This document shows positions 47,854 through 54,207 of a stretch of DNA of 64,000 nucleotides, piece after piece (the stretch's first letter is position 1; each line of letters opens with the position of its first letter). The stretch covers positions 1 to 64,000 of the forward strand of contig CAWAUM010000004.1 in NCBI GenBank assembly GCA_963785235.1. Reading direction: 5' to 3'. The stretch comes from an uncultured delta proteobacterium (GTDB lineage: Bacteria > Desulfobacterota > Desulfomonilia > UBA1062). The position numbers were made by a program, and so were the translations under genes. The notes below the pieces were generated by a model. The model was given only the letters and a program-made list of their open reading frames with translations. It was not told where the DNA came from and did not search any database.

Positions 47854-48864
47854 TTACGGCCATGAATAGAATCCGCCCTTATTCTCACCCCTTCTCCGGT
47901 ACACAACCACGGTCGGGGTCTTTGTATTTGAGAGGGATTCCATGGTTTTCATGGCATCTTCGTAGTACCCCACCTGGTCAATCAGTTTGAATTTCATGCC
48001 TGTTGATGCTGTCATGACCCGGCCATCAGCTATTACAGTAATATCTTCAGGTTTCACCGGTCTTATGGCCTTCACCTTTGCAATGAAATCCTGGCTGAAT
48101 TCCGTTACTATCCCTTCCAGGATGGCTTTATCGTCTTTGTTCATATCTCGCAGTATGGTACCCGAGTCCTTGAGTTTTCCAGAAGTCAGCGTCTGGTTCT
48201 TAATGCCGAGTTTGTCCATAAGGCCTTCCAGACTGATGGAAGGCAGGAGAACCCCAATATTGCCCACCACGGCGGAGGGCAATGCGACAATACGGTCAGC
48301 AGATAAAGCCACCATATAGGCGCCTGAGGTGCCCTGGCCGGTTATGCAGGCTACAATTGGGATCTTGCGGGTCTCCTTGAAGTCCTTGATCTCTCTGAAA
48401 ACCAGGTCTGAGGCTGTCACACCACCCCCTGGCGAATCGATCTTGAGAAGGATACCCTTGATGGCCTTGTCTTCTTTGGCCATTTCCAGGACACCATCGA
48501 TCCGTTCAAGGGTCCCCTGCCTGGTGGCTATAAAGCTGTCCCTCATGGCTGTTGTGGTGATCATGCCGAGCACCTCTATTACGAGGATCTTGTCTTTTGA
48601 GCCCTCTTTCAGAACCCGTTCTTCGAAAGGTTGAGTCTGCATAAGGCTTCCAAGATCGAACGAGATAAATGCACACCCATGGAGAACGAGTAATCCAAAA
48701 AAGACTGCAGCAATTCTAAAAATCTTTATCTTATTGAGACAATTGCATAACTCAGAAAAAGGTGTCACCCCCGCGAAGGCGGGGGTCCAGAAGTTCTTAA
48801 TAAGACAAGATTCCCGCTTCCGCGGGAAAGACATCCTTTGAAATTTACGATTAGTTCTATTCAT
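47854..48864 (-). CDS. sppA: signal peptide peptidase SppA (36K type lipoprotein) with an in-frame MITE in its N-terminus
   Basis: IDSPGG, SGAYMVA, GNIGV, SGKLKD, DGRV; lipobox LHGC. Confidence 0.9.
   Translation of the reverse strand: MNRTNRKFQRMSFPRKRESCLIKNFWTPAFAGVTPFSELCNCLNKIKIFRIAAVFFGLLVLHGCAFISFDLGSLMQTQPFEERVLKEGSKDKILVIEVLGMITTTAMRDSFIATRQGTLERIDGVLEMAKEDKAIKGILLKIDSPGGGVTASDLVFREIKDFKETRKIPIVACITGQGTSGAYMVALSADRIVALPSAVVGNIGVLLPSISLEGLMDKLGIKNQTLTSGKLKDSGTILRDMNKDDKAILEGIVTEFSQDFIAKVKAIRPVKPEDITVIADGRVMTASTGMKFKLIDQVGYYEDAMKTMESLSNTKTPTVVVYRRRGENKGGFYSWP
48736..48857. mobile_element. ~120-bp MITE with perfect 4-bp target duplication TATT, inside sppA
   Basis: TATT|GAGACAATTGCATAAC...TTACGATTAGTTC|TATT; 122+4=126 nt, in frame. 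Confidence 0.85.
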
Positions 48865-50308
48865 TGCGGATTTCACCTCCAACGGTAATCTCAGGAATCA
48901 GCAGGGTAGGTTGGGCATCGGCGATAGGCACCCCTTGTCCGTCTTTTCCGCACGTGCCGATTCCGAAACCAAGATCGTTACCCAGCAGCTCAATGGAATT
49001 GAGGATTTTAGGACCGTTCCCTATGAGCGTTGCCCCCCGGATGGGTTCGCCCACACAACCATTTTCAATGAGATAGCCTTCGGATACATTGAAGACGAAG
49101 TCGCCTGTCACCGTGTTTACCTGTCCACCGCCCATCTTTTTCACGAATATGCCGGCATGCACCTTCCTGATGATCTCTTCTGCGTTCAGGGGTCCCGGCT
49201 GGATGATCGTGTTGGTCATGCGCGGGATGGGCCTATGGCGGTAGGATTCACGCCTTGCATTGCCGGACAGTGGCAGGCCGAGTTTCTGAGCAGTGATGAG
49301 GTCGGTCATGAACCCCTTGAGGATGCCGTTCTCCACCAGGACAGTCCGGTTGGTGGGGCTCCCTTCATCATCACAGCCCATGGAGCCTCTTAAGCCTTTG
49401 ATGGTGCCGTCATCAATGACCGTGATGGCAGATGACGCAACCTGCATGCCCATCTTGCCGGAATAGACCGACAGGCCTTCACCGGCCAGATCGGCCTCCA
49501 GGCCGTGGCCGATGGCCTCGTGCACCATTGTACCGCCGGCATCACTGGAAAGAACTACCGGCATGGTACCGGCCGGTGCACGCCTGGCTTTGATGGTGTT
49601 CAATGCCCTGCAGATGGCCCTTTTGGCAATTTCATCAGGGGGGGTCTCTTTGAACAACTCGAATCCACGGGCTCCACCCATGGGTTCATAGCCCGTCTCC
49701 ATGAGCGAATCCCGGGCAACGATCCCCTGGACAACAAAAATAATGGTGTCCCGAGAGTCTTCTGCAATGAATCCTTTTGAGTTTGCAATGAAGACCCTGC
49801 GTGATCCATCGCCATACATGACTTTCACCTGCACTACGGAGCTGTCCATTCCCCATGCTACATCTTCCGCCTTTTGAACAAGCGCTATCTTTTCTTGGGG
49901 ATCTATCCTGACAGGATCGATATCCATGAGGACTGTTGAGGTCGAAGGCCTTTTCATGAGTGCGATGGCTCCGGAGAAACTTCCTGACTTGACTGCCGAG
50001 GCCACAGTATCGGCAAGATCATCAAGCGAAGAAGGATCATTCGTGTAGGCATACGCAGATCTTTCACCTATGACAACCCTCAGCGCTATCCCCGACTCTT
50101 CAGTGATAAGGAACTTTTCGATCTTGTGTGCCTCGCAGATTATGGATGTGCCTTTTTTCTGTTCAACATAGAGTTCTGCAAAATCACCGCCTTTGGCGAG
50201 AGATCGTTTGAGTAACCGCTCACAATCAATATCGCTGATCTTTATCACTTTCGCACAAGGAGACTCCGGCCAATCTACGGATTGGCCAAGAGATGAATTG
50301 TGTGTCAT
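48857..50308 (-). CDS. tldD: TldD metalloprotease; N-terminus now supplied by the IscB element (ATG 50308 or GTG 50248)
   Basis: GGDFAELYVE, HEAIGHGLEAD, DDEG, GNARRESY..PIPRMTNT, CGKDGQ. Confidence 0.9.
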   Translation of the reverse strand: MTHNSSLGQSVDWPESPCAKVIKISDIDCERLLKRSLAKGGDFAELYVEQKKGTSIICEAHKIEKFLITEESGIALRVVIGERSAYAYTNDPSSLDDLADTVASAVKSGSFSGAIALMKRPSTSTVLMDIDPVRIDPQEKIALVQKAEDVAWGMDSSVVQVKVMYGDGSRRVFIANSKGFIAEDSRDTIIFVVQGIVARDSLMETGYEPMGGARGFELFKETPPDEIAKRAICRALNTIKARRAPAGTMPVVLSSDAGGTMVHEAIGHGLEADLAGEGLSVYSGKMGMQVASSAITVIDDGTIKGLRGSMGCDDEGSPTNRTVLVENGILKGFMTDLITAQKLGLPLSGNARRESYRHRPIPRMTNTIIQPGPLNAEEIIRKVHAGIFVKKMGGGQVNTVTGDFVFNVSEGYLIENGCVGEPIRGATLIGNGPKILNSIELLGNDLGFGIGTCGKDGQGVPIADAQPTLLIPEITVGGEIRNE

Positions 50309-51939
50309 TCTATTCCTCCCATGAACCTGTATGGTGCAACCAGATCAGCCCTTACCGGTTTTGGCAACGTTCTGAGCTTGATATAAGCGCCAAGATTCTG
50401 CATACCGGCTACTGTATGTTTTTCACCATCGAGGATCACTATATCATTGGGCTGATAGGTATATCTTTGCTTTTTGATCCTCAGGTGACCCTTGGACAGC
50501 TTCTCTCCACGGTATTGTCTTAAGTTCTCTCCGTTCAGGTTTTTGTTTCTTGTCCTGCGGCCGCAATTAAGCTCACTGCCGGAAGCCTTTTCCCCTGTCC
50601 TGATATCTATGTACTGTGCATCATAGAACTTGCAGAAAGAACGGTTGTTGCGCCTTGACTGTTTGAAGGTGATCTGGGCCGTCCTCATCTGTGCCTCACC
50701 TCCCGCGATCACAAACGCGTCGTTAGCATGGGATTTCGGGATATCAAGTTCGATGCGCTTAGATTTGGTTACATGGCCGAAGGTGAGGCTTGTTTCAAAG
50801 CCTTTCGCCCTGAGCCTGTCAAGGAGCATCCACCTTACGATCGTCATAAAGGTCTTCTGCCGGAACGATTTGACTGCCGGCGTCCAGCCATACAGAAATC
50901 CCTTATCCTTGTGGTTCTCCGGCTTGTGGCACTTGTCGCAGAGAGTAATCAGATTTGCAGGCCTGTCGCTCCGGTCTTCCTTCCAATAACCGATATGATG
51001 TACCTGGAGGACCTTCTCATGCGCCTTGTTTCTGCAGTTCGGGTTCTGGCATTTGTGCCCGTCACGGTGCAGGATGTATTCGCGCAGGTTCCAGTAACCG
51101 GCCTGTTCGCCCTGTTGGTACTGCTTCCCCTCGATCTCGGGGTCCTTGATCTTCTGGATGTCGAATGCGGCAACTTCGACTATGACGGACGAGACGGGAA
51201 GGATTCTTCTGATCTTGTCAACCAGACCAAGCTGCGCATCCAGCTTGTTCTGTATGGACGGTGCTAGCCATCCTTCAGGCCTGCGCCGGTTGTCGAATCT
51301 GGGATCCCTGAATCTCAGCCGGCTTCTTCTCTGGCTCTGGTACTTGCGACATTCCTCAATCCTCGCGGACTGATCCTTAGGCAAAAGGAGTTCACCGGCG
51401 AGGAACTCTGCTTTTTCAGTGATCGTAGAGAAACCCGCTGTTTCGTATCCGGAATCCAGCCCCATTGTAATAGGTTGTACGGTTTCACCGGTAGCCCTCT
51501 TCAGCCTGATGGTAAAAGGTTTTGCCTTAACGACATATGCATTGCCCTCCCGGAGCAGTTTCCTCGCCTTGCGGGGAAAGCTCGGCATGAGAGGTTTCCC
51601 CTCCATATTTAAAACGCATACCCTGGTTTCCTTGACTTCCAACAAATCTCCTGTTGTTGACGGATACCCTCGGGTTCCGTCCTCCTTTCGGAGTTGGCCC
51701 ACATCGCCAATGTTTTGCAGGGTTTTTGCCCGGCTCACTTCGCCCTCCCGTGAGCGATGTTTAAAACCGATCCGCAGTGTCCAGGACTTGTGGAGCATCC
51801 CGGAGTGCCTATGTCATTCCCACAAAACGTAGCCCGGTGGGAACTTCCGTTCCCCTGGCTGAGGCTAATCAACCAAGCTCTCAAGGTTTTACCCCCTCAA
51901 GCCCCAAACCAATATTTTCATTGGTTGCGGGTAGTTGAC
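50246..51939 (-). mobile_element. non-autonomous IS200/IS605-superfamily IscB (OMEGA) element
   Basis: Left end GTCAACTACCC..GGGGCTTG, right end CAATTCATC..hairpin..CTTGTGCGAAAGTG. Removal restores the smpB stop and tldD start. No tnpA. Confidence 0.88.
50305..51642 (-). CDS. iscB: RNA-guided endonuclease IscB (PLMP, split RuvC, bridge helix, HNH)
   Basis: GKPLMP, RKARKLL, GLDSG (RuvC-I), RRSRLRFR..RFDNR, VEVAAFD (RuvC-II), VHHI..NLITLCDKCH (HNH), SHANDA (RuvC-III). TTG start after AGGAG is inferred. Confidence 0.92.
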   Translation of the reverse strand: MEVKETRVCVLNMEGKPLMPSFPRKARKLLREGNAYVVKAKPFTIRLKRATGETVQPITMGLDSGYETAGFSTITEKAEFLAGELLLPKDQSARIEECRKYQSQRRSRLRFRDPRFDNRRRPEGWLAPSIQNKLDAQLGLVDKIRRILPVSSVIVEVAAFDIQKIKDPEIEGKQYQQGEQAGYWNLREYILHRDGHKCQNPNCRNKAHEKVLQVHHIGYWKEDRSDRPANLITLCDKCHKPENHKDKGFLYGWTPAVKSFRQKTFMTIVRWMLLDRLRAKGFETSLTFGHVTKSKRIELDIPKSHANDAFVIAGGEAQMRTAQITFKQSRRNNRSFCKFYDAQYIDIRTGEKASGSELNCGRRTRNKNLNGENLRQYRGEKLSKGHLRIKKQRYTYQPNDIVILDGEKHTVAGMQNLGAYIKLRTLPKPVRADLVAPYRFMGGIE

Positions 51940-51955
51940 CTCCATGATTTCACCT
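51655..51955 (-). ncRNA. omegaRNA (HEARO-like): ~16-nt 5' guide from the smpB 3' end plus ~280-nt scaffold
   Basis: GTTGATTAGCCTCAG, CTACGTT, ATAGGCACTCCGGGATGCTCCACAAGTCC, TTAAACA, AACATTGGCGATGTGG and a terminal GACGGA..TCCGTC hairpin upstream of iscB. Confidence 0.82.
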
Positions 51956-52400
51956 CTCTTGCCGTATCGCGCCGGATATCACGTTCCTTGATGACATCTT
52001 TTTTGCTATGTGCCCGCCGCCCTTTGGCAAGACCCAACTCCACCTTGATGCGGTTGCCTTTTATATAGAGCCTTAACGGAACCAGGGTGAGCCCTTTTTC
52101 TTTAACCTTTCCGTTCAGTCTGAAGATTTCCCGTCTGTGTAAAAGAAGCTTTCTTGGGCATGTGGGATCATAATGAATATTCGATGCCTGGGCATACGGG
52201 CTTATATGGAAATTATTCAGAAAGACTTCATAGTTCCTGATCTGAGCATAGCCGTCCTTTATGTTTCCCCCACCGTTTCTGAGGGATTTCACCTCGGGGC
52301 CGCTCAGCACGATACCCGCCTCGATTGTCTCAAGTATCTCATATGAGTGCCTGGCTGTCTTATTGAGGCAAAGGTTTTTTTGGGCTTCAGGATCTTTCAT
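51918..52400 (-). CDS. smpB: SsrA-binding protein (last 6 aa from the IscB element)
   Basis: NKTARHSY, EAGIVLSGPEVKSLR, RKLLLHRREI, GLTLVPL. Confidence 0.95.
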   Translation of the reverse strand: MKDPEAQKNLCLNKTARHSYEILETIEAGIVLSGPEVKSLRNGGGNIKDGYAQIRNYEVFLNNFHISPYAQASNIHYDPTCPRKLLLHRREIFRLNGKVKEKGLTLVPLRLYIKGNRIKVELGLAKGRRAHSKKDVIKERDIRRDTAREVKSWRSTTRNQ

Positions 52401-52437
52401 GAATTAATGCCCCATTTTCAGTCTCATCAAAGGTATG

Positions 52438-54207
52438 TCAGGCAAGCTCAAATATATCGTGGGCATTTTCCATGATCTCTTTGCTCATGAACTCATAAAT
52501 TTCGGCAGCGGTTCTCATCTCAAAGATATGGCTCACAATGCCCTTGCACTTTTCAATGCTGAGTTTTCTGGCCATCTCTTTTATGTGAGAAATTGCAAAG
52601 GCATTCGTCGAGAGGGAATCAATGCCCATCCCCAACAGGATCGGGGTATAGATCTCGCGGCCGGCCATTTCGCCGCACATGGATACCGGAATACCGGCGT
52701 TGTGCGCCGCATCAACGGTGAATTGGATAAGGCGCAAGACACCTGGATGCAGGGGTTCGTACAGGTAGTTTACATACTCGTTGCCCCGGTCGATGGCGAT
52801 GGCATACTGTATGAGATCATTGGTGCCGAGACTGAAAAAATCCACCTCCTTTGCAAGGATATCCGCAATGACCGCTGCGGAGGGGACTTCGATCATAATG
52901 CCTACCCGGATATTCTCGTCAAAGGGGATGCCGTCTTTTTTCAAGGTCAGCTTGGTCTCTTCCAGGATATCCTTGGCCTTGGCCAGTTCCTCCATACCTG
53001 AAATCATGGGAAACATGATGGAGGTGTTGCCATAGTGACTGGCCCTGAGTAGGCCTCTCAGCTGTGTCTTGAAGATGTCTACTTCCTTGAGGCATAACCT
53101 GATGGCGCGCAACCCCATGACAGGGTTCCTCTCGTTGATCACCCTGCTCAGGCCGGCATAGAATTTGTCTCCGCCAAGATCCAAGGTGCGGATGACGGTG
53201 TTGAAGGGGGAGACCGTTTCCACAACCGTCTTGTATGCCTCGAAATGGTCCTCCTCCGTGGGGATCTCCTTGCGGATGAGATACAGGAATTCAGTCCGGT
53301 AGAGCCCGATCCCCTCGGCGCCGTGATCAAGGACTGTCTTAACCTCTTCCTTGAACTCGAGGTTGCCTTTGACCTTTATATACTTGCCATCCTTGGTGAT
53401 GGCGGGTTCCTTGGCCTTTTCCTTGAGTTTGAGCTCAAGGCTCAGATAGGACCTGGCCCTGTTCTCATATTCGTGTAATTGTGATTCAGAAGGGTTGACG
53501 ATAACAACCCCAGAGATGCCGTCGAGTATGAGATTGTCGCCGGGATTGATAAGAGACGAAACATTCTCAAGACCTACGACTGCAGGTATTTCAAGTGAGT
53601 GGGCGATGATGGCTGTGTGAGAGGTAAGGCCACCGACATCGGTTGCAAAACCAAGCACCTTGTTCTTGTTGAGCATGGCCGTATCTGCCGGTGAAAGGTC
53701 GTGCGCCACTATGATGCTGTTGTCAAGCAGGTGGAACCCGCTGGTTTGCCTGCCGATGAGGTTGCGCAGCAGACGTTCACTGACATAGGTCGTATCCGTT
53801 ACCCTGCTTTTGATGTACTCGTCATCGATGGCTTCAAAGGCCTGTTCAATCTCTTGAATGGCTATTTTCAAGGCCCACTCGGCATTGATGTAATCTTCGG
53901 TTATGAGTTGCTTTACCCGGTCTATGAGGGCCGGATCTTTCAGCATGAGCAGATGGGTTTCGAGGATAAGAGAATGCTCTTTAATTACATTATGTGTCTC
54001 AAGGGTGCGAATGGCCTCGCCGATCTGTTTCTGAGAGAGGACCATGGCATCATAGAAACGCTTGAGCTCGTCCTCGACACGGTCTTCCGAAACGCGCAGT
54101 TTGGGATACCGTTCAATTTTTTTCGTATCAATAATAACGGCCTGCCCGATGGCAATGCCGGCTGAGGCGGGAACACCGTGCAAGATATGGACCTGTTGCT
54201 GGGACAT
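52438..54207 (-). CDS. ptsI: PTS enzyme I
   Basis: GGLTSHTAI phospho-His, GIGLYRTEF, NPVMGLRAIR, FSLGTNDL, CGEMA. Confidence 0.95.
   Translation of the reverse strand: MSQQQVHILHGVPASAGIAIGQAVIIDTKKIERYPKLRVSEDRVEDELKRFYDAMVLSQKQIGEAIRTLETHNVIKEHSLILETHLLMLKDPALIDRVKQLITEDYINAEWALKIAIQEIEQAFEAIDDEYIKSRVTDTTYVSERLLRNLIGRQTSGFHLLDNSIIVAHDLSPADTAMLNKNKVLGFATDVGGLTSHTAIIAHSLEIPAVVGLENVSSLINPGDNLILDGISGVVIVNPSESQLHEYENRARSYLSLELKLKEKAKEPAITKDGKYIKVKGNLEFKEEVKTVLDHGAEGIGLYRTEFLYLIRKEIPTEEDHFEAYKTVVETVSPFNTVIRTLDLGGDKFYAGLSRVINERNPVMGLRAIRLCLKEVDIFKTQLRGLLRASHYGNTSIMFPMISGMEELAKAKDILEETKLTLKKDGIPFDENIRVGIMIEVPSAAVIADILAKEVDFFSLGTNDLIQYAIAIDRGNEYVNYLYEPLHPGVLRLIQFTVDAAHNAGIPVSMCGEMAGREIYTPILLGMGIDSLSTNAFAISHIKEMARKLSIEKCKGIVSHIFEMRTAAEIYEFMSKEIMENAHDIFELA

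What the first reader, a model, noticed from the sequence alone, without database searches (positions are those of the whole stretch)
50246..51945. One insertion disrupts two overlapping genes and the element ends rescue both
Seen: deleting 50246-51939 gives GAGGTG-AAATC-ATG GAG ATA AAG ATC. This reads as smpB ending K-S-W-R-TAA and, overlapping it, tldD starting M-E-I-K-I-S-D behind a GAGGTG RBS. With the element in place, its left end gives smpB a new stop after 6 codons (STTRNQ*). Its right end is open in the tldD frame, with an ATG coupled to the iscB stop (ATGA, 50305-50308) and a GTG at the junction (50248). Inference: iscB is now an operon member between smpB and tldD, and tldD translation may depend on iscB translation. 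This is a splicing-free way of neutralising an insertion in core genes, unlike IStrons, and it could select for keeping the iscB frame.
Basis: partly seen in the sequence, partly recalled or inferred. Interest (0 to 1): 0.8.

Follow-up and report, generated by a model that had tools for sequence, protein, structure and literature searches.

The report
IscB transposon in the smpB/tldD overlap
A small mobile element that carries an RNA-guided nuclease has landed exactly in the ten-base overlap between two housekeeping genes and leaves both readable, but this follows mostly from where such elements always land, not from a new trick.

Summary
Window 50246-51939 (minus strand) is a 1,694-bp non-autonomous IscB/omega-RNA (HEARO) element of the IS200/IS605 (ISC) kind. 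It sits without target duplication inside ...ATGGAG|ATAAAG..., the smpB-stop/tldD-start overlap. Two sister species and contigs of one metagenome run carry exactly the predicted empty site.

SmpB keeps all 154 native residues (AGA becomes AGG, still Arg) and gains STTRNQ. TldD loses Met-Glu. It can restart at ATG 50308, which has GGGAGG 6 nt upstream and overlaps the iscB stop, or at the junction GTG 50248.

The "rescue" looks mostly generic:
- The family's target motif ATAAA contains TAA, so landing on a stop codon is expected.
- Every frame entering the omega-RNA end stops within 7-19 codons.
- The far end of relatives ends in NTG, usually a start codon.
- Co-orientation with the upstream gene is a published requirement of IscB guide-RNA synthesis.

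Earlier reports of this scan describe IscB elements on start codons and stop/start overlaps in other genomes. Expression of tldD, translational coupling and selection on the iscB frame remain untested; no RNA run was listed. Verdict: a clean new member of a known kind, moderately interesting.

The parts
50246..51939 (-). Whole IscB/omega-RNA element, 1,694 bp, no target-site duplication
   Evidence: Empty site in L005 and L006. X2 joint 50245->51940. HEARO model position 1 falls at 51939. The far end aligns with relatives ...GAAA(A)TG|ATAAA.
51693..51939 (-). Omega-RNA scaffold (HEARO, RF02033). This is the transposon right end in the IS605 convention of Meers 2023.
   Evidence: 118.7 bits against a gathering score of 83, E 6.2e-25, model positions 1-211. 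It is the only HEARO in the genome.
51940..51955 (-). Inferred guide segment of the omega-RNA: the last codons of smpB, lying outside the element. The length of about 16 nt is assumed.
   Evidence: Position is inferred from published IscB architecture, with the guide 5'-adjacent to the scaffold (Meers 2023 passages). The identical sequence plus ATAAAG is present in the empty sites of L005 and L006.
51918..52400 (-). smpB. Native residues 1-154 are 52400..51939 (the last Arg codon is split, AG|G). The element-encoded tail STTRNQ plus TGA is 51938..51918.
   Evidence: ORF. Pfam SmpB 1.2e-53. Orthologues end SWR*.
51892..51956 (-). Orphaned native tldD start: GAGGTG 51956-51951 and ATG 51945-51943. 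It now opens an 18-codon ORF (MEVNYPQPMKILVWGLRG*) that runs 48 nt into the omega-RNA scaffold.
   Evidence: Sequence and translation.
50305..51642 (-). iscB, 445 aa from the likely TTG start at 51642 (the frame is open from 51798). Stop TGA at 50307-50305.
   Evidence: Pfam RRXRR 4.8e-53 and HNH 5.3e-07. NCBIfam guided_IscB 322.7 bits, cut-off 175. Full-length alignment with 17 homologues, including the columns invariant in all 18 sequences.
50246..50304 (-). Target-motif-proximal end (transposon left end in the IS605 convention). It carries the hairpin GGCCAATC-TACG-GATTGGCC at 50268-50287.
   Evidence: Sequence and fold. The terminal block is homologous to relatives. The iscB frame reads ...SLLVRK-TGA across the junction, like the relatives' ...SLLAEK-TGA.
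50240..50245 (-). Target motif (TAM) ATAAAG. It reads CTTTAT on the + strand and abuts the element.
   Evidence: Present in the empty sites of L005 and L006. ATAAA follows the end in 12 of 12 related complete copies and in L034.
50306..50320 (-). Candidate new tldD start: GGGAGG 50320-50315, a 6-nt spacer, then ATG 50308-50306, which overlaps the iscB TGA (ATGA).
   Evidence: Sequence and ORF list. The frame is open to tldD.
50246..50248 (-). Junction GTG, in frame with ATA AAG ATC. It would give M-IKISD instead of the native MEIKISD.
   Evidence: Sequence. No Shine-Dalgarno-like motif lies within 15 nt upstream (read by eye).
48857..50308 (-). tldD. The native body is 50245..48857 (codon 3 onward); 21 element-encoded codons are added if it starts at 50308.
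   Evidence: Pfam PmbA_TldD domains 1-3. 92.6% identity over residues 1-462 to L006 with no break. HEAIGHGLE aligns with solved E. coli TldD.

Best explanation
This is a single-copy, non-autonomous IscB/omega-RNA (ISC, IS200/IS605 superfamily) transposon. It was acquired after this species split from its nearest sampled relatives.

How it landed: it inserted by the family's usual rule, immediately 5' of the motif ATAAA on the iscB strand (TTTAT on the other strand), without duplication. Here the motif is formed by the last base of smpB's final Arg codon, its TAA stop and codons 3-4 of tldD.

How it is expressed (inferred): it lies in the sense orientation. IscB elements need this, because the guide of the omega-RNA lies outside the element and must be transcribed from the upstream host gene. 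So smpB, the omega-RNA, iscB and tldD are most likely made as one transcript.

What happens to the two genes:
- SmpB is complete and carries six extra residues.
- TldD most likely starts at ATG 50308, which has a good ribosome-binding site and overlaps the iscB stop. That adds 21 element-encoded residues in place of Met-Glu. The junction GTG is a weaker alternative.

Why both genes survive: this is a by-product of generic end features (a TAA-containing target motif, stops in every frame of the omega-RNA 5' hairpins, a terminal NTG, no terminator), plus some luck, plus retention only of insertions that do little harm.

Shown: identity, ends, empty site, intact frames. Inferred: co-transcription, the start actually used, tolerance of the altered termini.
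For: Identity of the element:
- HEARO scores 118.7 bits, starting exactly at 51939.
- IscB carries RRXRR and HNH and matches guided_IscB at 322.7 bits.
- It aligns end to end with 17 homologues.

Precise insertion:
- Empty sites in L005 and L006.
- The X2 joint skips exactly 1694 bases.

Recent and single:
- 1 match in the own genome by DNA, by RNA model and by protein.
- 1 of 52 family genomes (the own genome only) has IscB at E<=1e-20.
- The nearest homologues anywhere are 61-64% identical.

Target rule:
- ATAAA abuts the far end in 12 of 12 related complete copies and in the autonomous relative L034, which carries a Y1 transposase gene.
- Kapitonov 2016 reports target-specific ISC insertion without duplication at N|ATGA, and IS605B-1_MS insertion at ATCA and ATAA sites (passages).
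- Meers 2023 reports TTTAT as the TAM of ISGst2 and that TAM and transposase target coincide (passages).

Orientation:
- Meers 2023.
- In my sample, 10 of 12 related loci have a co-oriented ORF of at least 60 aa that spans the site or ends within 100 nt upstream. The other two are L041, which has only 38 nt of upstream flank, and L044, where none was listed.

Generic ends:
- Host frames entering the omega end stop after 7, 16 or 19 codons.
- 2 of 3 frames are open over the last 60 nt.
- Terminal triplets read by eye: ATG in 13 loci, GTG in the window, TTG in L058, TTA in L041, TAT in L034.

Host genes intact:
- tldD aligns over residues 1-462 with L006.
- A second PmbA/TldD-family gene, the likely partner, is present on contig C5.
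- The solved E. coli TldD chain has 42 residues ahead of the aligned core, against 36 in the extended protein here. An N-terminal extension of this size is therefore within what a folded TldD carries.
Against: There are no expression data of any kind. tldD could be poorly translated or silent, and it would still look intact if the insertion is young.

The ATG with GGGAGG at ideal spacing, overlapping the iscB stop and open for 21 codons into tldD, is more than the generic features predict. It could be a post-insertion adaptation or an element feature. No near-identical copy exists to decide.

The predicted RNA fold pairs this GGGAGG with CUCCU of the element end. That would favour dependence on iscB translation. 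However, the fold is no better than shuffles (z -0.96).

SmpB's tail is functionally important (recalled, not checked here). The 7 residues now following the conserved Trp exceed anything in the 29 orthologous loci read, where the maximum was about 5 after the equivalent aromatic residue.
Confidence: 0.7

Rival explanations
1. The far end of this IscB clade is an evolved translational restart module. A terminal ATG/GTG is fused in frame to the target motif (ATA-AAx) and overlaps or follows the iscB stop (ATGA). Downstream host genes are then translated by ribosomes that have just finished iscB. This makes insertions in operons non-polar and ties host-gene expression to an intact iscB frame, a kind of addiction.
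For: In the clade 53-54% identical to the window's IscB, iscB runs to the last base of the element. Its stop TGA is completed by the first A of the target motif, and an ATG overlaps it (AATGA|TAAA).

I worked out frames by hand from the ORF coordinates for 8 loci where a host ORF spans the junction or starts within about 10 nt of it. The junction start codon is in frame in 6 (window, L040, L043, L044, L046, L047) and out of frame in 2 (L045, L048).
- In L043 the element sits after codon 3 of a 92-aa ORF and the junction ATG restores M-IKA..., as in the window.
- The window has its own ATGA with GGGAGG.

Earlier reports of this scan (unchecked AI notes) describe IscB copies that leave neighbours translatable.
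Against: 6 of 8 against an expectation of 1/2 is not significant, and the sites are few and partly from one metagenome lineage.

The terminal TG is what is conserved. The base before it varies (A, G, T), and 3 of 4 choices make a start codon anyway. L041 (TTA) and L034 (TAT) have none.

No Shine-Dalgarno motif precedes the junction codon in the window.

Many copies sit where no downstream co-oriented gene exists (L049, L051/L055).

Decayed copies (L051/L055, L053) and intact ones do not sort clearly by context.
Confidence: 0.12
2. The insertion is simply tolerated damage. tldD is now weakly expressed or silent, and/or SmpB is impaired. The frames look intact only because the insertion is young and the genes are dispensable under the organism's conditions.
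For: - The element is absent from all 51 other family genomes searched and from the closest relative (97% SmpB identity, L005), so it is young.
- The native ribosome-binding site and ATG of tldD are now 1.7 kb from the gene.
- The junction GTG has no Shine-Dalgarno motif.
- In the predicted fold, the GGGAGG before ATG 50308 is paired.
Against: - ATG 50308 has a canonical GGGAGG at 6 nt and sits where ribosomes ending iscB would open the structure.
- No terminator-like site lies inside the element on the minus strand.
- The same insertion appears in X1 on an smpB allele that differs at 7 places. It therefore persists in more than one strain background, if X1 is not just the source with strain mixture.
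- SmpB loses no residue.
Confidence: 0.15

Closest known systems
ISC (IscB) transposons of the IS200/IS605 superfamily (Kapitonov, Makarova and Koonin 2016, PMC4810608; passages read)
   Same: About 1.3-1.7 kb. Encode only IscB. 5' terminus GT(CA). Subterminal hairpin. Inserted at a specific 4-5-bp target without duplication. Usually non-autonomous.
   Different: The published ISC targets are GT|GG, GT|RA and N|ATGA. Here the target is N|ATAAA(G). In the passages I read, an ATAA-type target was reported only for a TnpB element (IS605B-1_MS).
Geobacillus stearothermophilus ISGst elements, GstIscB/ISGst5 and ISGst2 (Meers et al. 2023, bioRxiv 10.1101/2023.03.14.532601; passages read)
   Same: [quoted passage not shown] Needs transcription from the upstream host gene. 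The TAM equals the transposase target. The guide plus TAM re-create the empty site, so the nuclease can cut vacant alleles. The TTTAT motif equals that of ISGst2.
   Different: GstIscB's own TAM is TTCAT. IscB here is only distantly related; the best identity to any sequence found was 64%. No IS200-type TnpA was found in the genome. The two Y1 hits score as REP-associated transposases.
IStrons: group I intron plus IS605-type element (Tourasse 2014, PMC4227781; Zedaveinyte 2023, bioRxiv 10.1101/2023.11.20.567912; search listings and abstract starts only)
   Same: A transposon of the same superfamily that sits inside genes yet leaves them functional.
   Different: IStrons splice out of the RNA. 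No intron ribozyme is detected here. Any tolerance works at the level of translation termini.
Earlier reports of this scan on other genomes (AI notes, not checked by me): IscB elements on start codons, between a ribosome-binding site and a start codon, and on the purM/purN stop/start overlap
   Same: An IscB element at an intercistronic junction of an operon, in sense orientation, with both neighbours still translatable. Landing is explained by the target motif.
   Different: In the N|ATGA families the host ATG stays attached to its gene. Here the host ATG-GAG is left on the far side of the element, so an element-encoded start must replace it.

Membership tests
IscB/omega-RNA (ISC, OMEGA) transposon of IS200/IS605 | IscB protein: N-terminal PLMP/RRXRR region, split RuvC with inserted HNH | tested here: met
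   Pfam RRXRR 4.8e-53 and HNH 5.3e-07. NCBIfam guided_IscB 322.7 bits against a cut-off of 175. Aligns over its full length with 17 homologues. The assignment of catalytic residues among the invariant columns is from recall.
IscB/omega-RNA (ISC, OMEGA) transposon of IS200/IS605 | HEARO/omega-RNA directly upstream of iscB on the same strand, starting at the element end | tested here: met
   RF02033 at 118.7 bits (gathering score 83), 51939-51693, model positions 1-211.
IscB/omega-RNA (ISC, OMEGA) transposon of IS200/IS605 | Target-specific insertion without target-site duplication | tested here: met
   Empty sites in L005 and L006 equal the window minus 50246-51939. X2 joint. ATAAA next to the end in 12 of 12 related copies.
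IscB/omega-RNA (ISC, OMEGA) transposon of IS200/IS605 | Subterminal imperfect hairpins instead of terminal inverted repeats | tested here: met
   An 8-bp hairpin at 50268-50287 lies 22 nt from the end. Relatives have a hairpin at the same place with a different sequence. The other end is the paired 5' stem of HEARO. No search for terminal inverted repeats was run.
IscB/omega-RNA (ISC, OMEGA) transposon of IS200/IS605 | RNA-guided cleavage of the vacant site (guide plus TAM) | not testable with these tools
   Only the substrate is shown. The 20 nt upstream of the element plus ATAAAG are intact in L005 and L006.
IscB/omega-RNA (ISC, OMEGA) transposon of IS200/IS605 | Mobilisation by a Y1 (TnpA) transposase, in cis or in trans | tested here: inconclusive
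   There is no tnpA in the element. The genome has 2 Y1_Tnp matches, both best matched by REP-associated tyrosine transposase at 72.8 and 85.9 bits against a cut-off of 80. Relatives L034, L059, L060 and L063 carry a Y1 gene after iscB. The genome is 93% complete.
IStron | Group I intron ribozyme at the 5' end of the element | tested here: not met
   An E-value-mode Rfam scan of 48000-54000 found only HEARO and one sub-threshold hit outside the element.
SmpB | SmpB domain, full length | tested here: met
   PF01668 1.2e-53, residues 11-151. Residues 1-154 are collinear with orthologues.
TldD (PmbA/TldD metalloprotease) | Three PmbA_TldD domains and the HExxxH motif | tested here: met
   PF01523, PF19290 and PF19289. 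E 1.8e-94 to E. coli TldD 5nj5, with HEAIGHGLE aligned.

The most novel reading that the evidence does not exclude
IscB elements with the N|ATAAA target have ends shaped to be translationally transparent inside operons.
- The omega-RNA end closes any incoming host frame within a few codons.
- The far end carries a start codon fused in frame to the target motif and coupled to the iscB stop.

Downstream host genes then become dependent on translation of an intact iscB. That would make the nuclease gene hard to lose and would be a splicing-free counterpart of IStrons.
Probability: 0.12. Interest if true: 0.65.

Novelty: new member of a known kind. Interest (0 to 1): 0.35.

Why it matters
This is a very clean natural example of how an RNA-guided transposon can sit inside an operon of core genes. 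The occupied and empty alleles are both in hand, and the guide and target motif can be read directly.

It shows that a stop-codon-containing target motif steers such elements to gene ends. It also raises a testable question: do IscB elements, which must be transcribed from a host gene, limit their polar effect on the genes behind them?

A side issue is specific to this site. The guide and the first 21-51 nt of the guide-RNA scaffold are now translated, both by ribosomes finishing smpB and by ribosomes starting at the orphaned tldD start. Guide-RNA maturation and translation may therefore compete. If the guide RNA's 5' end is made by cutting the transcript, smpB mRNA would lose its stop codon and become a substrate of the very system SmpB serves. 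This is inference only.

Tried and rejected
Search for other copies, to learn the ancestral state of the ends:
- None in the own genome.
- None in 51 family genomes.
- Best elsewhere 61-64% protein identity.
- So I cannot tell whether ATG 50308 and its GGGAGG predate the insertion.

Expression: no RNA holder was listed among the sequencing runs. Nothing can be said on expression.

Promoter and terminator scan: counts equal those of shuffles (5 vs 4.2, and 7 vs 5.3), and no site lies on the minus strand inside the element. This is weak negative evidence only.

RNA fold of the far end: z -0.96, no better than shuffles.

Base composition: element 51.6% GC against 50.4% for the window, so no signal of foreign origin.

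Wider survey in viral contigs:
- 80 loci were fetched.
- An all-against-all blastn did not give usable element ends for most of them, because they belong to more distant clades.
- I read only 6 of the 80 (L058-L063) by eye and did not count the rest.

Dropped before the context count: L034-L037, L042, L050, L052, L054, L056 and L057. These were incomplete, duplicates of a counted site, autonomous with tnpA, or had a far end not recognisable by the ATAAA rule.

Errors:
- One search failed on a frame error of mine and was corrected.
- One search failed on a search-term syntax error and was not repeated.

Literature: my searches were not aimed at, and do not establish, the absence of a paper on IscB ends acting as start or stop signals. 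Supplements (for example the target-site figures of Kapitonov 2016) could not be seen and may list ATAA-type ISC targets.

Considered and rejected:
- Assembly chimera. Rejected because the X1 contig bridges the omega end, and identical element pieces occur in X2 (51255-51463) and X3 (50338-50606).
- IStron. Rejected.


Full report
**What is there.** All relevant genes are on the minus strand.

| Feature | Coordinates | Evidence |
|---|---|---|
| smpB, 160 codons | 52400-51918 | Pfam SmpB 1.2e-53 |
| HEARO/omega-RNA | 51939-51693 | RF02033, 118.7 bits vs gathering 83, E 6.2e-25, model positions 1-211 |
| iscB | 51798/51642-50305 | RRXRR 4.8e-53, HNH 5.3e-07; NCBIfam guided_IscB 322.7 bits |
| tldD | 50308-48857 | three PmbA_TldD domains; E 1.8e-94 to solved E. 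coli TldD with HEAIGHGLE aligned |

IscB aligns end to end with 17 homologues. Its C-terminus (...PYRFMGGIE) is 2-3 residues shorter than that of the closest one (...PYRFSGGFSIA). It is therefore not truncated.

- On the minus strand the sequence reads ...GAGAGGTGAAATCATGGAG|GTCAACTACCC...(element)...GTGCGAAAGTG|ATAAAGATCAGC....
- I searched 41 genomes (the own genome plus 40 relatives) with SmpB; 37 had a match. I read the junction in 29 fetched loci.
- tldD follows smpB in 17 of the 29: 17 of 20 loci of the same family, and 0 of 9 of the neighbouring family.
- In 10 of 10 same-genus genomes SmpB ends ...SWR*. The tldD start is the NTG that overlaps the Ser-Trp codons (ATG in 3, GTG in 6, TTG in 1), giving NTG-GAG-AT(A/G).
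- The two closest genomes, G011 (L005) and G002 (L006), read ...agagaggtgaaatcatggagataaAGATCAG.... This is exactly the window without 50246-51939, with no duplicated bases.
- Independently, 2 contigs of run X2 join 50245 to 51940, skipping 1694 bases. The shorter side is 22 letters, and these contigs are 90-95% like the window, so they come from relatives.
- A contig of X1 bridges the omega-RNA junction (51691-52261). X1 may be the source sample, so it is not independent.
- The cut is ambiguous by one G. 16 related copies begin GTCAA after unrelated flanks, and HEARO position 1 falls on 51939. Together these fix the ends at 51939 and 50246.

**What kind of element.** It is a non-autonomous ISC/IscB element.
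- It is the only copy in this 93%-complete genome by DNA, by RNA model and by protein.
- IscB is found in 1 of 52 genomes of the family, the own genome only, at E<=1e-20.
- The nearest relatives anywhere are 61-64% identical (4 genome loci; 18 metagenome loci; 7,084 proteins at E<=1e-30).
- The insertion is therefore younger than the split from G011, whose SmpB and TldD are about 97% identical to the window's. No copy is close enough to reveal the ancestral end sequence.
- The two Y1-transposase matches in the genome look like REP-associated transposases. Some relatives (L034, L059, L060, L063) carry a Y1 gene right after iscB.

**The target rule explains the landing site.**
- In 12 of 12 related complete copies, and in L034, the far end is ...GAAA(A)NTG followed by ATAAA, after which the flanks diverge. 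In the window ATAAAG is part of the empty site, so it is target and not element.
- On the other strand this is TTTAT|element. That is the classical IS200/IS605 arrangement and the TAM reported for ISGst2 (Meers 2023, passages). That paper calls the omega-RNA side the right end.
- Kapitonov et al. 2016 (passages) describe ISC elements with 5'-GT termini, target-specific insertion without duplication at GT|GG, GT|RA and N|ATGA, and an IS605B element at ATCA and ATAA sites.
- Because ATAAA contains TAA, a sense-oriented landing on "NNA TAA A" at a gene end is expected. Because the element begins with G, the split last codon NNA becomes NNG. Here AGA becomes AGG, both Arg.

**How special is the "rescue"?**

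At the smpB side it is not special. Host frames that enter the omega-RNA end stop after 7, 16 or 19 codons. SmpB keeps residues 1-154 and gains STTRNQ.

At the tldD side:
- Two of three frames are open across the last 60 nt.
- The third frame is the iscB frame. It reads MGGIE*HTIHLLANP*IGRSLLVRK*, ending in a TGA made of the element's last TG plus the A of the target.
- In the clade 53-54% identical to the window's IscB, iscB itself runs to this junction TGA (...SLLAEK*), and an ATG overlaps it.
- The terminal triplet is ATG in 13 loci read, GTG here, TTG in L058, TTA in L041 and TAT in L034. The conserved part is TG, so a start codon arises in three of four cases by default.
- What is not generic in the window is ATG 50308. 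It has GGGAGG 6 nt upstream, overlaps the iscB stop (ATGA) and is open for 21 codons into tldD codon 3.
- The Gly-Gly that encodes this GGGAGG is shared with the closest homologue. The motif may therefore be an ancestral by-product.

**Context survey.** Of 12 related complete copies (11 distinct sites, since L051 and L055 share one), 10 have a co-oriented ORF of at least 60 aa that spans the site or ends within 100 nt upstream.

I worked out frames by hand for 8 loci, window included, where a host ORF spans the junction or starts within about 10 nt of it.
- The junction start codon is in frame in 6: window, L040, L043, L044, L046, L047.
- It is out of frame in 2: L045, L048.
- The expectation is 1/2, because the TAA frame cannot occur inside a gene. 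This is suggestive but not significant.
- L043 is a close parallel. The element sits after codon 3 of a 92-aa ORF, and the junction ATG restores M-I-K-A....

**Likely mechanism in this allele.**
- Transcription from the smpB promoter probably reads through the element. No terminator-like or sigma-70-like site lies on the minus strand inside it, although the scan as a whole is at shuffle level.
- This is what IscB elements need, because the guide lies outside the element (Meers 2023).
- TldD most likely starts at ATG 50308. The predicted fold pairs its GGGAGG with CUCCU of the end (z -0.96, not significant). Opening by ribosomes that finish iscB is therefore plausible but unproven.
- The extended protein has 36 residues ahead of the core that aligns with E. 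coli TldD. The crystallised chain has 42. The native E. coli length of 481 aa, which would imply a tag, is recalled.
- A second PmbA/TldD-family gene, the presumed partner, is intact on contig C5.
- The guide (last codons of smpB) plus ATAAAG is intact in L005 and L006. There is one mismatch in L008 and L009, and the motif is absent in the other 6 same-genus genomes. The nuclease could therefore cut vacant alleles of the closest species.

**Comparison and novelty.**
- The element is an ordinary member of the ISC/IscB kind.
- The sense orientation and the dependence on host transcription are published.
- Earlier reports of this scan (unchecked notes) describe IscB elements on start codons, between a ribosome-binding site and a start codon, and on the purM/purN stop/start overlap. 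One of them says that a survey of about 70 insertions made start-codon landing the rule for the N|ATGA family. That note led me to Kapitonov 2016, whose target table I checked.
- The difference here is the ATAAA target. It places the element on a stop codon and 6 nt inside the next gene, so the host start is orphaned and an element-encoded start must take over. The orphaned start now opens MEVNYPQPMKILVWGLRG*, which runs into the omega-RNA.
- There is no intron, so the contrast with IStrons is valid. The claim of a distinct neutralising mechanism rests on one locus and no expression data.

**Verdict.** This is a new member of a known kind. Interest is moderate, as a clean model locus for testing whether IscB ends limit polarity.

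Noticed in passing
window 51892-51945 (-): The native tldD ribosome-binding site and ATG stay upstream of the element. They now open an 18-codon ORF (MEVNYPQPMKILVWGLRG*) that runs 48 nt into the omega-RNA scaffold. smpB's own new stop lies 19-21 nt inside the scaffold. Translation and guide-RNA folding or processing may therefore compete.
   Followed up: partly
window 52032-52224, run X1: The X1 contig that bridges the omega-RNA junction has 7 differences, all in smpB beyond 52031. It has none in the 92 nt of smpB next to the element or in the element part, and the tldD piece 49900-50224 has none. This could be a recombination or gene-conversion tract around the element, as homing would leave, or just strain mixture. 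Depth is only about 5.
   Followed up: no
runs X2 and X3: Pieces identical to the element (51255-51463 in X2, 50338-50606 in X3) occur in two freshwater metagenomes. X2 also holds the empty site on relatives' contigs at higher depth. Carriers and vacant targets may therefore coexist.
   Followed up: no
L043-L055 (metagenome loci), far end of the element: In this clade iscB has no stop codon of its own inside the element. The ORF ends with TG, and the first A of the target motif ATAAA completes TGA (followed by TAA). The window's element keeps the same frame and junction TGA but has two earlier stops.
   Followed up: partly
L034 4316-4790; also L059, L060, L063: Relatives of the window's IscB (53-62% identity) are autonomous. 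An IS200-type Y1 transposase gene (…YHLVWCPKYR…) follows iscB on the same strand. In L034 the element ends ...GTGCGATTAT|ATAAAC.
   Followed up: partly
window 48742-48846 (+): A long hairpin just downstream of tldD gives a sub-threshold Rfam hit to WsnRNA46 (34.6 bits against gathering 65.3). It is probably only a terminator-like stem. Terminator-like sites at 48828 and 48781 on the minus strand lie here too.
   Followed up: no
G000 contig C11 76115-76450 and contig C1 221771-222109: Two Y1-transposase-like genes (open frames of 181 and 242 aa) score best as REP-associated tyrosine transposases. It is unknown whether either could mobilise the IscB element.
   Followed up: partly
L056 5332-5507 (-): A 6S RNA (RF00013, 53.6 bits) lies about 1.9 kb downstream of a distant IscB copy in a metagenome contig.
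   Followed up: no
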